NCBI GenBank assembly: GCA_963678375.2
Contig: OY782831.1
Coordinates: forward strand, 1,087,030 to 1,151,029
Length of the DNA stretch: 64,000 bases
Direction: 5' to 3'
Origin: Candidatus Cloacimonadales bacterium
Lineage (GTDB): Bacteria; Cloacimonadota; Cloacimonadia; Cloacimonadales; JAFGVF01
Shown: piece by piece, positions 52,257-58,426 of the stretch
Numbering within the stretch: position 1 is the first letter of the stretch
Layout: each line of letters opens with the position of its first letter
Translations under genes and position numbers: made by a program
Notes under the pieces: model-generated
What the model was told of the DNA's origin: nothing
Seen by the model: only the letters and a program-made list of their open reading frames with translations
Databases searched by the model: none

Positions 52257-52312
52257 CCTCCTTGTATGCTAGCAGAAAAAGGTTGGGCTCCCCGCCCAAC
52301 CTTTCTGCATTT
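52198..52312 (+). repeat. Direct repeat copy A (last 19 codons plus stop of the C25 gene, plus terminator)
   Basis: 114/115 identical to 53187-53301. The single mismatch is at 52277 (A) versus 53266 (C). Confidence 0.95.
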
Positions 52313-52313
52313 T
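52276..52313 (+). terminator. Rho-independent terminator of the C25 gene (a bidirectional hairpin)
   Basis: AGGTTGGGC (52280-52288) pairs with GCCCAACCT (52294-52302). T-rich on both strands. Confidence 0.75.
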
Positions 52314-53186
52314 ATCTAATCCTGTTTCAATTTTTTCCCTATGTGCATTATTCCTCCTTATCCACCGCTCTTTTTTAGATTATTCCCTCATTCTCCACCT
52401 AATGCTGATAGTTATTTTTAATAAAACTCTCAAGAAAAAAAGCTCCTTCTCCTTTAACCCTAATAGTTTAGTAGAACTTTACTATAGAGTGAAGATTATT
52501 CTAGCAAAATCCCTTTCTTTGAGAGCTATAGGAGGTGTTTCAATATAGACGCATAAAATATAAATATTCGGAGAAATTATGGATCTTACTTTTGCAGAAT
52601 AATATAGTTCTAATCACAAAGGTCTATTGCACATTCTGGGTTTAACATTACCCACTGATTTTTACAGGAGCATACTAACAGAATACTTATCTTGCCATTC
52701 AGCCAAAACCCCAATCCAATAAGAGCTACTCTAACCAGAACAAAATAGTAAAGGGTGGTCTTGAAGGGAATAAGCTATTAAAAACATCTTTTTAATAACA
52801 CTTACTTGCTTTTTGTTAATAATTTCTTTTGTGCAATTTTTACAATATTGATACTTTTAAAAAGTTTATAACTAAGTAAGCTTTTAGTTAAACTTAAAGC
52901 TTCGTAATAACTTCTAATAATTAAATCAACTCATCTAACGTCTATCAGGTTATCTAATCTGTATACATAATATACATCTGACTAGATTTAACCTATAACA
53001 ATGTAGACACTTTGCCTGAATTTGAGATAATTATAACTTTTGCTACTTTTAGGGGAAGACTCTTAGAAAATTATAACAGAGCACTAAAAGTCGAATAATC
53101 AATGTGTTAAGCCAACACTCTTATATATTTGTTAAAATTTGATTAATTTTTTTTTGTTTGGAACGGCTATTGCATTATTATATAAG

Positions 53187-53301
53187 TGTATCGTCTAGAA
53201 ACCAAAACATATAACCAAACCAAAAAGATGATGCTGATGAAATAACCTCCTTGTATGCTAGCAGACAAAGGTTGGGCTCCCCGCCCAACCTTTCTGCATT
53301 T
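53187..53301 (+). repeat. Direct repeat copy B (orphan C25-gene 3' fragment plus terminator)
   Basis: See copy A; the offset is 989 bp. No ORF continues upstream of copy B. Confidence 0.95.
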
Positions 53302-53302
53302 A
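53265..53302 (-). terminator. Terminator hairpin in repeat copy B, placed directly 3' of the TPR gene
   Basis: The same GC-rich hairpin as copy A. It lies 11 nt beyond the TPR gene stop (53313) on the minus strand. Confidence 0.7.
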
Positions 53303-53312
53303 TAAGCTTTTT

Positions 53313-54008: not shown

Positions 54009-54511
54009 AAATAAAAACTCCTATTCAATAATTAGACCAATATTTTTGAATAAGATTAGATATGTCAAATATTAAAAAAGACTATTAAGTTAAGTAAGAT
54101 TAACTTTAACCATATTATAAGTTTATTGTAGCCATAACCTTGAGGTAAACTAGTCTTTCCAAGCGAAAATGATAATGATAAAAAATGAGCTACATTTTAA
54201 TAATTCAGCTTATATTTTACTCCTCATATACTATTTTTGAGCTTATAAATCATACATTGTTCCTTCATTATTACTCTCCCTTTATATAAGTAGAAATCTA
54301 TTGGGAGAGTTATTATGATGGTATAAAAAAACTTGTATCAAGAGCCATAAATCCAAATAAAATCATAGTACATTGACTTTATTGTTCTCATGTGATGAAG
54401 CAAGAGAGTAATAGTAATGTGAATAATATTCTGCTAGTAATAAAAGAATCCTATACAAAAAAGCTTGTCAAAAAAGTAATATATATTAAATTAGAATATA
54501 GAGACAACATT

Positions 54512-56215
54512 ATGAAAAAATTTAAACTTATACTAATATTACTCCTCTTCCATATTATTGGACTTAGTGCTAAAGAATGGACAATTCTTATTTATATGGC
54601 TGCAGATAACGGCTTGCACCAATACGCTCTTGAAGATATTGCTGAAATGGAAACTTCATCTTTCAGTTCTCAAGCAAACATAATAGTAGAAATGGATGGG
54701 GACAACGATAGCGACTTAGCTGCTACTTATAGATATAAGATAGAAGAGAATACTCAAGCTGGAATTCAATCTCCAATAATTAGCAACTTAGGGGAAACAA
54801 ATTCTGGTTCCTACCAAACCTTAAAAAGTTTTGTGGATTGGGGATTCAATAGATATAAATCTTCTAACAAAGCTTTAATCATCTGGTCTCATGGTAATGG
54901 ATGGGCGAAAGACTTAAAGGGAAAAGGTATAGCACCAGATAACTCTTCTCAAAGTTTTATTAGTATGTCTAATCATGAAATGCAGGCTGCCTTAAGCGAT
55001 ATAAAGCTTGATCTCCTAATTTATGACGCTTGTAATATGCAGACCCTTGAAAACTTAATTGAGCTCAAAAGTAGAGCAGACTACATTATTGGTTCAGAAG
55101 CCAGTGTTCCCTCAAGCGGTTTGCCTTATGGTCAGATTTTCGACTACTGGCAATCAGCTTCAAATATTGATTCCTTAGTAATAAATATCCCTAAAATATA
55201 TGTAGATGCTTATCGCCCTGGTAATATTTACAATTCAGGCTCTTTCTTAAGAAGAGTTGCGGCTTCTACTGCTAAGATGATTGAAATAGATAATTTTGAA
55301 CAAGAAATAAATACCTTCTTAGCTAAGTGGAGTGAAGATACTAGAGAATTTATTCTTGCAAGAGAGAATCTGAATGAATTCGGGATAACTTCCACAGATA
55401 TTGATATAAAAGAATTATTAGACGACTTGATTGAAAATAGTGATAATAGTGACTTAAAGTATGATAGCCAAAATCTCTCAGAAAGCCTAGAATCTCTTTT
55501 CATAAGCTATGATTCTTCTTCTTTCAATTATAAAGTAGGTCCTGCTACATTATGGTTTCCGAGATATTCATATCAATTTGAAAATAATTGGCAAATTTAC
55601 AGAAATTTAAATTTTGCTAAAGGAGCTATAGGAAATTTTTTAAACAATTTGTTAGCTCCTGATGAAATCCCTCCCTTTCCTTTTGAAATTACTAAGTCAC
55701 AAGTAGTAAATGAGACTATCTATTTAGATTGGGAAAATCATCTTGACCCTGACCCTTTAAGCTACCAAATAAATTTTACTTTTATTGATGGGACAAATCA
55801 GACGATTAATCTTGAAAATATTGGATTTTATCAGGGTAGAGTCATGCAAGATGGCCAAGTATATATTATAGCCCAAGATGCTGCAGGCAATCAGACAAAA
55901 TCTCCTATCCAGGACTTTAAAGTTAATCCTGACTATGGCCAGCTTTATATTGCACCCAACCCTATAAGAAAAGATAATAAAGGTGAAGTAATATTTTTCG
56001 CTCAAAATACAGGGGGCAAAGAGGCTGAGATAAGCTTGTTTTCCCTGAGTGGTAAGATTATATCGAAAACTAAAATTAGCTTATCTGAGGGGATGAATGA
56101 ACACAAGATCAACTTAGCTGACATTGTTAAAGGTAGATTGAGTTCAGGAATTTACTTATGTAGTCTCAAGATTGATAACAAATATTATAAAACTAAATTC
56201 GCAGTAGAAAATTAA
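54512..56215 (+). CDS. Clostripain-like (peptidase C11) family protein with a T9SS C-terminal domain
   Basis: ATG 54512 with a signal peptide. 'WTILIYMAADNGL', 'IIWSHGNGW' (His), 'LLIYDACNM' (Cys). C-terminus 'IAPNPIRKD...SGIYLCSL'. The track's GTG start at 54392 is rejected. Confidence 0.75.
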   Translation: MKKFKLILILLLFHIIGLSAKEWTILIYMAADNGLHQYALEDIAEMETSSFSSQANIIVEMDGDNDSDLAATYRYKIEENTQAGIQSPIISNLGETNSGSYQTLKSFVDWGFNRYKSSNKALIIWSHGNGWAKDLKGKGIAPDNSSQSFISMSNHEMQAALSDIKLDLLIYDACNMQTLENLIELKSRADYIIGSEASVPSSGLPYGQIFDYWQSASNIDSLVINIPKIYVDAYRPGNIYNSGSFLRRVAASTAKMIEIDNFEQEINTFLAKWSEDTREFILARENLNEFGITSTDIDIKELLDDLIENSDNSDLKYDSQNLSESLESLFISYDSSSFNYKVGPATLWFPRYSYQFENNWQIYRNLNFAKGAIGNFLNNLLAPDEIPPFPFEITKSQVVNETIYLDWENHLDPDPLSYQINFTFIDGTNQTINLENIGFYQGRVMQDGQVYIIAQDAAGNQTKSPIQDFKVNPDYGQLYIAPNPIRKDNKGEVIFFAQNTGGKEAEISLFSLSGKIISKTKISLSEGMNEHKINLADIVKGRLSSGIYLCSLKIDNKYYKTKFAVEN

Positions 56216-56310
56216 GTATTAATAAATTTTACTTAAGAAAATATCAATTTGTTAAGTACTTCACTTTAATTTATAATGTTAACAATATGTTAATTATAGT
56301 TTTATAGATT

Positions 56311-56503
56311 TGTGGACAAAATTTATCTTTATCAATGTGGAAAAGATTTGGTTAATTTCTCTTAAATTATTATAAAAAAAAGCAATTAGACTCTTAAATC
56401 CTCTTGTGGATAAGTAGTGCATAACCACTTGTACAAACCTACACATTGTGTGCTAAACTATTGTTTTAAAGAAAGATAGCATATATGTGGATAATGTGGA
56501 TAG
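56311..56503. promoter_or_regulatory. DnaA-box cluster (candidate oriC or DnaA-binding locus)
   Basis: TGTGGACAA 56311-56319, TGTGGAAAA 56336-56344, TGTGGATAA 56405-56413, TGTGGATAA 56486-56494, TGTGGATAG 56495-56503. All share one orientation (the complement of TTATCCACA) and lie inside a 555-bp A+T-rich intergenic region. Confidence 0.55.
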
Positions 56504-56770
56504 TATGTGTAAGTATTAGTTAAGTCTAAACATTAAATAGTCTATGAAGCTTTCTACTTAGTAGTTTTCAATCATAGCTTTATCGAAATTGAAAGCTGAT
56601 TAGTAAATAATAGAAAACCAGCTGGATAACATCTTTATTATAAGACATTCTCATTAATAAAATCAAAAAAAAGTGAGTATATCTTGACATAGCTAATTTA
56701 GAGATTATTTTGGTTAAATCAAATAAGTGTAATATTACACCATAATTAAAAAAGATAAAGTAAAGGAATT

Positions 56771-58426
56771 ATGATAGCAGTATATATTGATGATAACAGT
56801 AATAGCAATTTGAATACGATGATCAACTATATAGTTGAGTTTACTTTCGTAACTCTAGGTTATAGTCATAAGATTATCTACTCTCTTAAGGGTTTGTCAG
56901 AGTTTGATGTCTTAATTTGGTATGATTCAAAAGGTATTCAAAAGAATCAGATTGCTAACTTTGCTAAAAAGATACCAATTATTGTTGTCAGATATCATGA
57001 GAATCTTTATATACCAAGTCAATTAAAAGGTAACAATCTAACTTCTAAGATTAAAAAAATTAAGTTTTATAACGAAATTATTCCTATAATTCATAACAAT
57101 CTTTTAACTAATATAGTAGAAGAAGTTAGACAGAGCGATATAGCACTTACAATTCTAAATTTTGATATTTTTGGAAATCTTTATTATCATATTACTGATT
57201 GCGAGTTCCGGGCTAAAAAAGCTGATGAAGGAATTATAGAGCAAGGAAGTGTATTTGATGAATTTTATCACGAACCCATCGTTAACCACCTTTTAGCCTT
57301 CACAGAAAAAATCATAATTAACTGTTGCCAAAAACTAGATTTCTTGCTAATAAAAAAAGAGTACTGGCCTCATGGTGAAGATTATGCAGTAATTTTTACC
57401 CATACTATAGATAAGCTAGAGAAATGGGGAAAAGGAGTTTTTAGCGAGTTTTTATTAGATTCAATGCCCCTGTTACTCAAAGGAAAATTTAAAGAAGTTT
57501 TTAGAAATTTATCAAGCGGACTTAAGTACTTTCTTACTGACGAAGAGCAATATTGGAATTTTGAAAACTATTTAGATTTAGATGAGAAGTATGGAATAAT
57601 TTCAACCTGGTTTGCCTCCCTATTAGAAGATAATGGTTTTATTTACAATGTTGATGAAAACAAGATGATTAAAGAATTAAATAGAATTCTAAGTAAGGGT
57701 CATGAGCTAGGAATCTTAGTTAATCCATACGAAATGGACCAAATTAAGATAAGAACAGCCCACAGCAAACTAAGCAAGATAACAAGTAATGATCAAGGTG
57801 GAATTAGGGTAACAGGAAGACCTCTTCATGATAGTATTTCTTTAGCTATCCACCGAAATAACCTTCTTTATGATTGCTCAATACTTTCTCCAAATATAGA
57901 CCTTTTCAAAAATGGCAACATACTACCTCATCATAAATTAATTGATGGAATTAGAACTTTCCCTTTAGAAATACCAATTACTTTTAGTGATGAAATTCTA
58001 AAATCTTCTAAGTACTCTTATAGGTCTTATGAATCAGCTAAACTAAAAATGGATAATCTAATTCAGAAAGTTCATGCTAGCGGTGGTTTGATTTGTTTCG
58101 ATTTCACCATAGCTAACTTTAAAGACATTAGCTATCTAGAAAAACTTTATACTTATACTTTAGAGAGAATTAAAGAGACCAACTATTATAATAACTCATG
58201 CAAAAAAATCTCACTTTGGTGGAAGGCAAGAAAAAATGTTATTATTACTAATGTTGAGTGGGGAGCAAATATTCTCTTTTTAGATGATTTCTCTTTCTTT
58301 ACTTTTAGGATTCATTCTAAGAAGAAAATTAAACAAATAACTATGGTAGAATATCAAATTGAAGATGATATTGTTACTATGTCTAATATAAAGGCTAATA
58401 CAGCTGTAGATCTAGTGATGGAGTAA
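56771..58426 (+). CDS. Hypothetical protein, first gene of the polysaccharide operon; possibly related to deacetylase/glycoside-hydrolase-like folds
   Basis: A 551-aa intact ORF. I recognise no secure motif. 'AVIFTHTIDK' weakly recalls NodB-type 'THD.D' motifs. Confidence 0.35.
   Translation: MIAVYIDDNSNSNLNTMINYIVEFTFVTLGYSHKIIYSLKGLSEFDVLIWYDSKGIQKNQIANFAKKIPIIVVRYHENLYIPSQLKGNNLTSKIKKIKFYNEIIPIIHNNLLTNIVEEVRQSDIALTILNFDIFGNLYYHITDCEFRAKKADEGIIEQGSVFDEFYHEPIVNHLLAFTEKIIINCCQKLDFLLIKKEYWPHGEDYAVIFTHTIDKLEKWGKGVFSEFLLDSMPLLLKGKFKEVFRNLSSGLKYFLTDEEQYWNFENYLDLDEKYGIISTWFASLLEDNGFIYNVDENKMIKELNRILSKGHELGILVNPYEMDQIKIRTAHSKLSKITSNDQGGIRVTGRPLHDSISLAIHRNNLLYDCSILSPNIDLFKNGNILPHHKLIDGIRTFPLEIPITFSDEILKSSKYSYRSYESAKLKMDNLIQKVHASGGLICFDFTIANFKDISYLEKLYTYTLERIKETNYYNNSCKKISLWWKARKNVIITNVEWGANILFLDDFSFFTFRIHSKKKIKQITMVEYQIEDDIVTMSNIKANTAVDLVME

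What the first reader, a model, noticed from the sequence alone, without database searches (positions are those of the whole stretch)
56216..56770. Five co-oriented DnaA boxes (two perfect) in a 555-bp A+T-rich intergenic region: candidate oriC away from dnaA
Within 193 bp (56311-56503) there are five boxes:
- TGTGGACAA
- TGTGGAAAA
- TGTGGATAA
- TGTGGATAA, directly abutting TGTGGATAG

That is two exact matches and three one-mismatch matches to the complement of the TTATCCACA DnaA box, all in one orientation. They are flanked by very A+T-rich tracts (e.g. 56368-56382 and 56640-56760) that could act as an unwinding element. Such density is very unlikely by chance.

No dnaA or dnaN gene is in the window, and mnmG is 17 kb away. 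If this is oriC, it sits next to a T9SS protease gene and a polysaccharide operon. Alternatives are a DnaA-titration or DnaA-reactivating type site, or DnaA-dependent regulation of the downstream operon. A further near-consensus box (TTATCCACC, 52358-52366) lies on the opposite strand in the ORF-free tract 4 kb upstream.
Basis: partly seen in the sequence, partly recalled or inferred. Interest (0 to 1): 0.6.

Follow-up and report, generated by a model that had tools for sequence, protein, structure and literature searches.

The report
Secondary DnaA-box cluster beside the origin
The five DnaA boxes are real and conserved in every relative of the same genus, but they are not the replication origin, which lies 15.5 kb further on just outside the window; they are most likely an extra DnaA-binding site near the origin of the kind known to damp replication initiation in Bacillus and E. 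coli.

Summary
Five co-oriented DnaA boxes (two perfect, three with one mismatch) lie in 193 bp of a 555-bp, 76% A+T intergenic region. Such clusters are about 300-fold over-represented genome-wide.

The headline reading, that this is oriC, is refuted by four lines of evidence:
1. The genome is Ca. Cloacimonadales, in two contigs. Its GC-skew switch, corrected for gene orientation, maps to 1159-1160 kb of contig C1. The finding sits at 1143.4 kb (ΔlogL about −8).
2. A 7-mer test conditioned on gene orientation agrees (ΔlogL about −13).
3. At the switch lies a 390-bp intergenic region with nine boxes and a canonical basal unwinding system, TTATCCATA-TATCCACA-CACA-CTACTACTAATACTAATT followed by an A+T-rich run. 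It matches the B. subtilis architecture, is almost letter-identical in the genus, and occurs once per genome in 21 of 61 genomes of the order.
4. In a rearranged congener the two clusters lie 74 kb apart, and the skew switch follows the nine-box cluster (ΔlogL about −24).

The finding's cluster is nevertheless under selection. It is present in six genus genomes, and a seventh assembly breaks at its first box. Its boxes are 92% conserved against 51% for the spacers. It stays tied to the 3' end of the protease gene while mobile DNA separates it from the downstream operon.

Best reading: a genus-specific, oriC-proximal DnaA-box cluster of the DBC/datA type. This is a new member of a known kind, with no experimental evidence.

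The parts
56311..56319 (-). DnaA box 1 (TTGTCCACA; TGTGGACAA on +)
   Evidence: Position conserved in all five aligned species: TGTGGA[CT]A[AG], pairwise column identity 0.89.
56336..56344 (-). DnaA box 2 (TTTTCCACA; TGTGGAAAA on +), exactly 25 bp after the start of box 1
   Evidence: Invariant in all five aligned species (identity 1.0) and present in G001. The 16-bp gap between box 1 and box 2 is conserved.
56363..56384 (.). Semi-conserved A+T tract TAAATTATTATAAAAAAAAGCA between boxes 2 and 3
   Evidence: Alignment A1, columns about 213-235; 9-column windows there score 0.76-0.79 identity against a spacer mean of 0.51. Function unknown; too short and too poorly conserved to call an unwinding element.
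56405..56413 (-). DnaA box 3 (perfect TTATCCACA)
   Evidence: identity 0.96 across species. G002, G004 and G001 carry an extra abutting box here.
56486..56494 (-). DnaA box 4 (perfect TTATCCACA)
   Evidence: invariant in five species.
56495..56503 (-). DnaA box 5 (CTATCCACA), directly abutting box 4
   Evidence: The TGTG core is invariant and the rest is variable (identity 0.76). This abutting pair occurs only once in the genome.
56506..56523 (+). Conserved motif TGTGTAAGTATTAGTTAA (consensus GTGTAAGTAGTAGTTAAT) flanking boxes 4-5. It resembles DnaA-trios but lies on the wrong side of the boxes for a basal unwinding system.
   Evidence: Alignment A1 columns 356-376; 9-column windows score 0.80-0.87. 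Genus-specific signature. Does not recur at other clusters. Unexplained.
56524..56655 (.). Variable spacer and insertion point that separates the box module from the promoter module
   Evidence: BLAST homology to congeners stops at about 56523 and resumes at about 56656. G003 has about 2.1 kb of ~54-bp repeats inserted here. G004 has about 3.8 kb including an IS200/IS605-RAYT-like transposase gene.
56656..56770 (+). Conserved upstream (promoter) module of the 551-aa gene and polysaccharide operon
   Evidence: It travels with the 551-aa gene in all congeners at 74-81% identity. It contains a sigma-70-like TTGACA-16-TATTTT at 56684-56711 (consensus match only) and no DnaA box.
54392..56215 (+). 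Upstream gene: clostripain-family (C11) protease with a T9SS C-terminal sorting domain. The box array always begins about 95 bp after its stop codon.
   Evidence: Pfam PF03415 at 5.5e-44 and PF18962. Linkage is conserved in G001-G005, and the G006 contig ends at box 1.
56771..58426 (+). Downstream gene: 551-aa protein without a family match, first gene of a glycosyltransferase operon
   Evidence: No Pfam or NCBIfam hit. GT1/GT4 genes follow. Its distance from the box array varies from about 146 bp to about 3.8 kb among congeners.

Best explanation
The five boxes form a non-origin DnaA-box cluster (DBC) on the left replichore. It lies 15.5 kb from the true oriC, which is at C1:1158695-1159084, about 7.7 kb beyond the end of the window.

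Inferred mechanism: DnaA binds the three strongly conserved high-affinity boxes (2, 3 and 4) and extends cooperatively over boxes 1 and 5 and the abutting degenerate sites, giving a stable head-to-tail DnaA array. Because the site is replicated almost immediately after initiation, its copy number doubles at once. It would then sequester or inactivate DnaA and damp premature re-initiation, as shown for the oriC-proximal DBCs of B. subtilis and proposed for datA of E. coli.

What is shown here: the boxes exist, they are non-random, they are under purifying selection as an autonomous module, and they are not the origin. What is inferred: DnaA binding and the negative-regulatory role.
For: Not the origin:
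- Orientation-corrected GC-skew regression puts the switch at 1160 kb; 1143-1144 kb has ΔlogL −7.8 to −8.7.
- A held-out 7-mer test conditioned on gene orientation puts the switch at 1159-1163 kb; 1143-1144 kb has ΔlogL about −13. The 1144-1158 kb interval behaves like the left arm.
- In G002 the clusters are 74 kb apart. The switch is at 1537 kb, on the nine-box cluster (1538.4-1538.7 kb), and the finding-type cluster has ΔlogL −24.
- A canonical BUS (tandem boxes, 4-bp spacer, CTA CTA CTA ATA CTA ATT, then an A+T-rich run) is found only at the nine-box cluster. It is conserved in five species and in a second genus. It matches the B. subtilis BUS in the supplement of PMC8287927.
- The BUS signature is unique in each of 21 of 61 genomes of the order, with no control hits.

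A selected DnaA-binding module:
- Five to seven co-oriented boxes are present in G001-G005.
- Box columns show 92% pairwise identity against 51% for spacer columns. No permutation out of 20000 reached that value.
- Box spacing is conserved.
- The module survives insertions of mobile DNA next to it.

Fits the DBC concept:
- The same genomes keep two further conserved non-origin clusters, at the dnaA promoter and inside a gene.
- B. subtilis DBCs are mostly oriC-proximal. Deleting them causes over-initiation, and their effect scales with closeness to oriC (PMC3245932).
- No Hda-like protein turned up in the Bac_DnaA domain search. The only short hit is an IS21 IstB.
Against: - There is no experimental evidence that DnaA binds here, or that deleting the site changes initiation.
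- The cluster is restricted to one genus. G008 and G024 have no equivalent within ±40 kb of oriC, so it cannot be an essential part of initiation control in the order.
- Five boxes can hold only a small fraction of cellular DnaA, so pure titration by this site alone would be weak.
- No conserved IHF-type site lies between the boxes, as datA requires. The single consensus match, at 56242-56254, is at chance level and is not conserved.
- The conserved GTAAGTAGTAGTTAAT motif beside boxes 4-5 is not explained by this model.
Confidence: 0.55

Rival explanations
1. DnaA acts here as a transcription factor or roadblock. The array might terminate or attenuate read-through from the C11 protease gene into the polysaccharide operon. 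It might instead control an unannotated or antisense transcript, or the operon promoter at a distance, so coupling expression to the replication cycle.
For: - No intrinsic terminator is predicted after the protease gene, yet the array always starts about 95 bp after its stop codon and shares its orientation.
- Some B. subtilis DBCs do regulate adjacent genes (PMC3245932).
- Sigma-70-like hexamers exist between boxes on the minus strand at 56397-56369.
Against: - The distance to the operon promoter varies from 146 bp to 3.8 kb, with IS and repeat insertions in between.
- The candidate minus-strand -10 element is not conserved in G002 or G004 (alignment).
- No conserved small ORF lies in the region and no Rfam family matches.
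- Five high-affinity boxes are more than typical operator sites need.
Confidence: 0.2
2. The array is a DnaA-reactivating (DARS-like) site that promotes ADP release from DnaA. It would stimulate initiation rather than damp it.
For: It is a short cluster of high-affinity boxes in non-coding DNA with a conserved flanking sequence. E. coli DARS1 needs three boxes plus a specific flanking region (PMC4585315). Here a conserved 18-bp flank follows boxes 4-5.
Against: - Extreme proximity to oriC is the position expected for a negative element such as datA or the B. subtilis DBCs. E. coli DARS sites are thought to act later in the cycle.
- All boxes are co-oriented and spread over 193 bp, not arranged as a compact three-box core.
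- There is no sequence similarity to DARS.
- Nothing here separates the sign of the effect.
Confidence: 0.07
3. One reading: this intergenic region is the chromosomal origin, or a second functional half of a bipartite origin.
For: - It has five boxes in an A+T-rich intergenic region within the flat bottom of the raw cumulative skew curve, 1135-1160 kb.
- A trio-like GTAGTAG motif lies next to a tandem box pair.
Against: - The skew and 7-mer switch lie at 1159-1163 kb.
- In G002 the switch follows the other cluster, 74 kb away.
- There is no BUS in the required orientation: best score 4, not conserved, against 15-16 at the true origin.
- The trio-like motif is on the wrong side of the boxes.
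- The cluster is absent outside the genus, while the BUS locus is order-wide.
- Separations of 11-74 kb are incompatible with known bipartite origins, whose halves flank a single gene.
Confidence: 0.03
4. The TGTGGA-type repeats are not DnaA sites in vivo. They would be binding sites for another factor, or structural parts or attachment sites of a mobile or repeat element that populates this spot.
For: - Mobile DNA inserts immediately to the right of the array in G003 and G004.
- G003 carries a second partial copy (boxes 4-5 plus 231 bp at 88% identity) beside the same ~54-bp repeat array at 94.3 kb.
Against: - The conserved 9-mers are exactly the DnaA consensus or one-mismatch variants. The same variants (TTTTCCACA, TTATCCACA) are used at the true oriC and at the dnaA promoter.
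- Boxes 1-3 are not part of the duplicated segment.
- G000, G005 and G002 have the array without any adjacent mobile element.
Confidence: 0.08

Closest known systems
Bacillus subtilis non-oriC DnaA-box clusters (DBCs; Ishikawa 2007 PMC2533591; Okumura 2012 PMC3245932)
   Same: Intergenic clusters of several consensus or near-consensus DnaA boxes outside oriC. They lie mostly close to oriC, coexist with a separate cluster at the dnaA promoter, and sit next to different genes in different species.
   Different: - The B. subtilis DBCs were defined by ChIP and by the over-initiation phenotype of the six-cluster deletion. Neither is available here.
- In B. subtilis dnaA sits at oriC, whereas here dnaA is 656 kb away.
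- This array is strictly co-oriented, with an abutting (0-bp spacer) box pair and a conserved flanking motif.
Escherichia coli datA (DnaA-ATP hydrolysis locus, DDAH)
   Same: About five DnaA boxes in non-coding DNA. It lies close to oriC on a fixed replichore, and boxes are conserved while spacers drift (PMC4585315).
   Different: - datA needs an IHF-binding site at fixed spacing between boxes 2 and 3. No conserved IHF-type site lies between the boxes here.
- datA is about 470 kb from oriC (from my own knowledge). This site is 11-74 kb away.
- There is no sequence homology to datA.
Streptomyces coelicolor oriC-proximal DnaA-box cluster (cited in PMC3245932 as its reference 40)
   Same: A secondary box cluster near oriC that is implicated in negative control of replication frequency.
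   Different: It comes from a different phylum, uses a different box consensus and sits in a high-GC context.
Canonical oriC with a basal unwinding system (BUS; Richardson 2016; Pelliciari 2021 PMC8287927)
   Same: It uses the same DnaA-box motif and includes a tandem box pair.
   Different: - It lacks the box-spacer-(CTA)n-A+T-rich arrangement in the correct orientation.
- It is not at the skew switch.
- The genuine BUS of this genome is at C1:1159022-1159075.

Membership tests
Chromosomal replication origin (oriC) | Coincides with the leading/lagging strand compositional switch | tested here: not met
   The switch is at 1159-1163 kb and the finding is at 1143.4 kb. ΔlogL is −8 for GC skew and −13 for 7-mers. 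In G002 ΔlogL is −24.
Chromosomal replication origin (oriC) | DnaA box(es), then a spacer of at most 16 bp, then at least three DnaA-trios (3'-NAN-5', ideally GAT), then an A+T-rich unwinding region, in the fixed orientation of the BUS | tested here: not met
   The best hit in the finding scores 4 (ATC TTT CTT) and is not conserved in congeners. The nine-box locus scores 15-16 and is conserved. Orientation was taken from PMC8287927 and PMC8235120.
Chromosomal replication origin (oriC) | Cluster of DnaA boxes in an intergenic region | tested here: met
   Five boxes in 193 bp. This feature is shared with non-origin clusters and so does not discriminate.
Chromosomal replication origin (oriC) | Conserved as a single locus across related genera | tested here: not met
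   The finding's signature occurs only in genus g1. The BUS signature is single-copy in 21 of 61 genomes and 12 of 36 genera of the order.
Non-oriC DnaA-box cluster (B. subtilis DBC type) | Several consensus or one-mismatch DnaA boxes clustered in non-coding DNA outside oriC, beyond chance | tested here: met
   Poisson probability about 5e-8; four clusters observed against 0.0125 expected.
Non-oriC DnaA-box cluster (B. subtilis DBC type) | Boxes maintained by selection (conserved while spacers diverge) | tested here: met
   92% against 51% column identity, and no permutation out of 20000 reached the observed value. Boxes are present in G001-G005, and the G006 contig ends at box 1.
Non-oriC DnaA-box cluster (B. 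subtilis DBC type) | oriC-proximal location | tested here: met
   The distance from the BUS is 15.5 kb in G000, about 18, 16 and 15 kb in G003, G005 and G004, and 74 kb in G002. All are at most 2.5% of the chromosome.
Non-oriC DnaA-box cluster (B. subtilis DBC type) | Stable DnaA occupancy in vivo, and over-initiation when deleted | not testable with these tools
   This needs ChIP, EMSA and genetics. The organism is known only from metagenome-assembled or uncultured genomes.
E. coli datA (DDAH locus) | IHF-binding site at fixed spacing between essential DnaA boxes | tested here: inconclusive
   The only WATCAANNNNTTR match is at 56242-56254, left of box 1. It is at chance frequency (12 matches against 10.9 expected in the window) and is not conserved. 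Two HU/IHF-family genes exist, but their binding specificity is unknown.
E. coli datA (DDAH locus) | Stimulates hydrolysis of DnaA-bound ATP | not testable with these tools
   This is a biochemical assay.
E. coli DARS | Compact core of three DnaA boxes plus a specific flank that promotes ADP release | tested here: inconclusive
   A conserved flank exists at 56506-56523. The boxes, however, are spread over 193 bp and all co-oriented, and activity cannot be tested.

The most novel reading that the evidence does not exclude
Cloacimonadota lack an identifiable Hda and keep dnaA and dnaN far from oriC. They may control initiation through a small set of conserved extra-origin DnaA-box clusters. One would be this strictly head-to-tail array with its unexplained trio-like flank. 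Another would be a cluster embedded inside a protein-coding gene that is conserved across genera. The array's flank (GTAAGTAGTAGTTAAT) could be a single-strand DnaA or co-factor site that makes the locus a catalytic DnaA-inactivating element, not a passive sink. That would be an analogue of datA evolved independently of IHF.
Probability: 0.12. Interest if true: 0.6.

Novelty: new member of a known kind. Interest (0 to 1): 0.33.

Why it matters
The result places the chromosomal origin of an uncultured Cloacimonadales lineage precisely, at a canonical DnaA-box/DnaA-trio unwinding module far from both dnaA and dnaN. It also shows that the more eye-catching five-box array in the window is a separate element. 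That matters in practice for origin annotation and for growth-rate estimates from metagenomic coverage.

Biologically, it extends oriC-proximal auxiliary DnaA-box clusters to the FCB-group phylum Cloacimonadota. Until now they have been studied only in Firmicutes, Actinobacteria and E. coli. It also gives a compact, well-delimited 213-bp module (window 56311-56523) that could be tested with purified DnaA.

It does not open a new kind of mechanism unless the flanking motif turns out to have a function.

Tried and rejected
- **Raw cumulative GC skew.** The minimum is at 1,159,392, but the bottom is flat from about 1135 to 1160 kb because a 25-kb block of plus-strand genes masks the replication signal. 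It was replaced by a regression with a gene-orientation term.
- **Plain 7-mer strand log-odds.** The minimum fell at 1108 kb. I rejected this as confounded by coding-strand usage and redid it conditioned on gene orientation.
- **Hda homologue.** The 242-aa Bac_DnaA hit is an IS21 IstB helper ATPase.
- **Rfam.** A scan of the whole window gave no matches.
- **Small ORFs in the intergenic region.** Only non-conserved ORFs of 20-50 aa were found.
- **Terminator scan after the protease gene.** None was found.
- **IHF consensus.** Matches are at chance level.
- **parS.** The only one-mismatch site is at C1:1079217, about 80 kb left of oriC, so parS is unrelated to the array.
- **Recurrence of the flank motif.** It does not recur at the other DnaA-box clusters.
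- **Literature on Cloacimonas origins.** No paper turned up in the library.
- **The search for related loci with the protease.** It returned only one congener, which served to name the lineage.

Full report
**1. The observation**

The window is C1:1087030-1151029 of a two-contig, 2.97-Mb genome with 32.7% G+C. A congener's record is titled Candidatus Cloacimonadales.

Two are perfect and three have one mismatch (sequence).

They lie in a 555-bp, 76% A+T intergenic region. Upstream is a clostripain-family (C11) protease gene with a T9SS sorting domain. Downstream is a 551-aa gene without a family match, which heads a glycosyltransferase operon.

Boxes with at most one mismatch occur at 0.42/kb genome-wide. 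Five in 193 bp has a Poisson probability of about 5e-8. Random placement of the genome's boxes yields 0.0125 clusters of five or more per 300 bp, and four are observed.

**2. Where the origin is**

The four clusters are:
- the finding, at C1:1143340-1143532;
- nine boxes in a 390-bp intergenic region at C1:1158695-1159084, 15.5 kb downstream and 7.7 kb past the window's end;
- five boxes directly upstream of dnaA at 1815.5 kb;
- five boxes inside an ORF at 1001.3-1001.6 kb.

The raw cumulative GC-skew minimum is at 1,159,392, inside or next to the nine-box region. The curve is flat from about 1135 to 1160 kb, because a long block of plus-strand genes sits there.

I regressed per-kb skew on a replication term and a gene-orientation term. 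The effects were 9.9 and 30.9 per kb, with a residual s.d. of 28.9. The best switch is at 1160 kb, and 1143-1144 kb is worse by 7.8-8.7 log-likelihood units.

A second test used 7-mer usage on the coding strand of leading-strand versus lagging-strand genes. It was trained outside 1.0-1.3 Mb and applied to that held-out zone.
- The best switch is at 1159-1163 kb.
- ΔlogL is about −13 at 1143-1144 kb.
- The interval 1144-1158 kb scores −9.3 per kb, like the left arm at −7.7.

Gene-strand bias fits the skew minimum being the origin and not the terminus: 64% of left-arm genes are on the minus strand and 59% of right-arm genes are on the plus strand. Contig C2 has a monotonic skew, so it is a piece of one chromosome arm and not a separate replicon.

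**3. The nine-box locus has a textbook unwinding module**

The supplement of Pelliciari et al. 2021 (PMC8287927) writes the B. subtilis basal unwinding system as 3'-AATAGGTGT TTAGGTGT CCGG GATGATAATGAAGATGAT-5'. On the top strand this is 5'-TTATCCACA AATCCACA GGCC CTACTATTACTTCTACTA. The equivalence of CTA and 3'-GAT-5' is stated in PMC8235120.

At C1:1159022-1159075 this genome reads 5'-TTATCCATA TATCCACA CACA CTA CTA CTA ATA CTA ATT AATAAAAAGAAAAGG. That is the same tandem box pair with one base of overlap, a 4-bp spacer, six trios and an A+T-rich run.

The module is nearly letter-identical in four congeners and is recognisable, with three trios, in another genus. The signature TTATCCAYATATCCACANNNNCTACTACTA, allowing up to three mismatches, has these properties:
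- It occurs in 21 of 61 Cloacimonadales genomes, spanning 12 of 36 genera.
- It occurs exactly once in 20 of them and twice in G046.
- The reversed control gives no hits.

The finding's cluster has no such module in the required orientation. Its best score is 4 against 15-16, and that weak hit is not conserved.

**4. A natural experiment**

In the closed genome G002 a rearrangement separates the two clusters by 74 kb. The finding-type cluster is at 1463.9-1464.1 kb and the BUS cluster at 1538.4-1538.7 kb.

The orientation-corrected skew over 400 kb switches at 1537 kb, with ΔlogL −0.9 at 1538 kb. The finding-type cluster is rejected at ΔlogL −24.

**5. What the five-box array is**

It is not a chance relic. 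The co-oriented array, with five to seven boxes, is present in G001, G002, G003, G004 and G005. In G006 the contig ends at the first box.

In a five-species alignment, box columns show 92% pairwise identity against 51% for the remaining intergenic columns. None of 20,000 permutations reached the observed value. Boxes 2 and 4 are invariant. The 25-bp offset between box 1 and box 2 and the abutting 4-5 pair are conserved.

The array always starts about 95 bp after the protease stop codon. Its distance to the downstream 551-aa gene varies widely:

| Genome | Distance to 551-aa gene |
|---|---|
| G005 | about 146 bp |
| G000 | 268 bp |
| G002 | about 610 bp |
| G003 | about 2.3 kb |
| G004 | about 3.8 kb |

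The extra DNA is mobile. G004 has an IS200/IS605-RAYT-like transposase gene and G003 has an array of ~54-bp repeats.

BLAST homology splits the intergenic region into three parts:
- a box module, up to about 56523;
- a variable gap, 56524-56655;
- a promoter module, about 56656-56770, that travels with the 551-aa gene.

The array therefore behaves as an autonomous, selected cis-element and not as an operator of the polysaccharide operon.

**6. Context: a set of extra-origin clusters**

The dnaA-upstream cluster is the expected autoregulatory site.

The intragenic cluster, inside a 534-aa lamin-tail-domain ORF, is also conserved. It has five to eight boxes in the same arrangement in four congeners and in another genus, although overall DNA identity there is only about 67%.

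The lineage thus maintains at least three DnaA-box clusters besides oriC, which is the situation described for B. subtilis. There, six non-origin DBCs are mostly oriC-proximal. Together they restrain initiation, and they act more strongly the closer they are to oriC (PMC3245932). E. coli datA, with five boxes plus an IHF site close to oriC, plays a comparable negative role (PMC4585315).

The search for Bac_DnaA domains found no Hda candidate. The only short hit is an IS21 IstB.

**7. Most likely mechanism**

I infer that DnaA binds the high-affinity boxes and oligomerises head-to-tail along the co-oriented array. Because the site lies only 11-74 kb from oriC, it is duplicated within seconds to minutes of initiation. 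That immediately doubles a sink for, or inactivator of, DnaA and so disfavours re-initiation.

Which steps are shown and which are inferred:
- **Shown:** the boxes exist, they are selected, they form an autonomous module, they are near oriC, and they are not the origin.
- **Inferred:** DnaA occupancy and the sign of the effect.

My confidence that this is not oriC is above 0.9. My confidence in the whole DBC/datA-like reading is about 0.55.

Rivals:
- transcriptional roadblock or regulation by DnaA (0.2);
- mobile-element-related or non-DnaA motif (0.08);
- DARS-like activator (0.07);
- origin or bipartite half (0.03).

**8. Limits and loose ends**

- The array is genus-specific. Its signature is absent from 35 other genera of the order.
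- G008 and G024 have no secondary cluster within ±40 kb of their BUS. G007 has an unrelated four-box cluster at −21.8 kb.
- No conserved IHF-type site lies between the boxes, so membership of the datA type is unproven.
- The conserved 18-bp flank TGTGTAAGTATTAGTTAA (56506-56523; consensus GTGTAAGTAGTAGTTAAT) looks like DnaA-trios. It lies on the side of the boxes from which a BUS filament would not extend. It occurs nowhere else in a comparable context. It remains unexplained.

**9. Verdict**

The element is a new member of a known kind, an oriC-proximal auxiliary DnaA-box cluster, in a phylum where none has been described. Interest is modest at 0.33.

The by-products are arguably as useful as the finding itself: a precise oriC/BUS for Cloacimonadales, and an intragenic DnaA-box cluster conserved across genera.

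Noticed in passing
Outside the window: genome C1:1158695-1159084 (locus L005:7666-8055): The true oriC candidate is a 390-bp intergenic region between a sigma-54 response-regulator gene and a 411-aa DNRLRE/disaggregatase-repeat gene. It has nine DnaA boxes and a canonical BUS (TTATCCATA-TATCCACA-CACA-CTACTACTAATACTAATT followed by an A+T-rich run). dnaA is 656 kb away and dnaN is on the other contig.
   Followed up: yes
Outside the window: genome C1:1001344-1001564 (L007:5345-5565), inside ORF L007:4558-6162 (-): A cluster of five DnaA boxes lies inside a 534-aa lamin-tail-domain protein gene. It is conserved, with five to eight boxes in the same arrangement, in four congeners and one other genus, although overall DNA identity is only about 67%. 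It lies 143-228 kb from oriC. An intragenic DnaA-box cluster under selection is unusual.
   Followed up: partly
Locus L031:1700-3930 (G003) and L063:2784-3640 (G003 C1:94.3 kb): G003 carries an array of ~54-bp repeats in both orientations, inserted right after the box array. A second locus has the same repeats plus a partial copy of boxes 4-5 and 231 bp of flank (88% identity). This may be REP/RAYT-type mobile repeats.
   Followed up: partly
Locus L035:3450-3911 (G004): An IS200/IS605-family or REP-associated tyrosine transposase gene (153 aa) is inserted between the box array and the polysaccharide operon.
   Followed up: partly
window 52257-53312: This is an ORF-free tract of about 1 kb downstream of the C25 (gingipain-like) T9SS protease gene. 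No Rfam family matches anywhere in the window. The single TTATCCACC at 52358 is not significant.
   Followed up: no
window 56771-58426: The 551-aa first gene of the glycosyltransferase operon has no Pfam or NCBIfam match. It is conserved in all congeners (74-81% DNA identity at its start).
   Followed up: no
Genome contig C2 (484,826 bp): Cumulative GC skew falls monotonically from about 83 kb to the end of the contig. C2 is therefore part of the left replichore and probably contains the terminus near 83 kb; it is not a plasmid. dnaN lies on it at 307.9-308.2 kb.
   Followed up: partly
Genome C1:1079217 (about 7.8 kb before the start of the window): This is the only near-perfect parS-like site in the genome (TGTTTCACGTGAAACC, one mismatch). 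It lies about 80 kb left of oriC.
   Followed up: no
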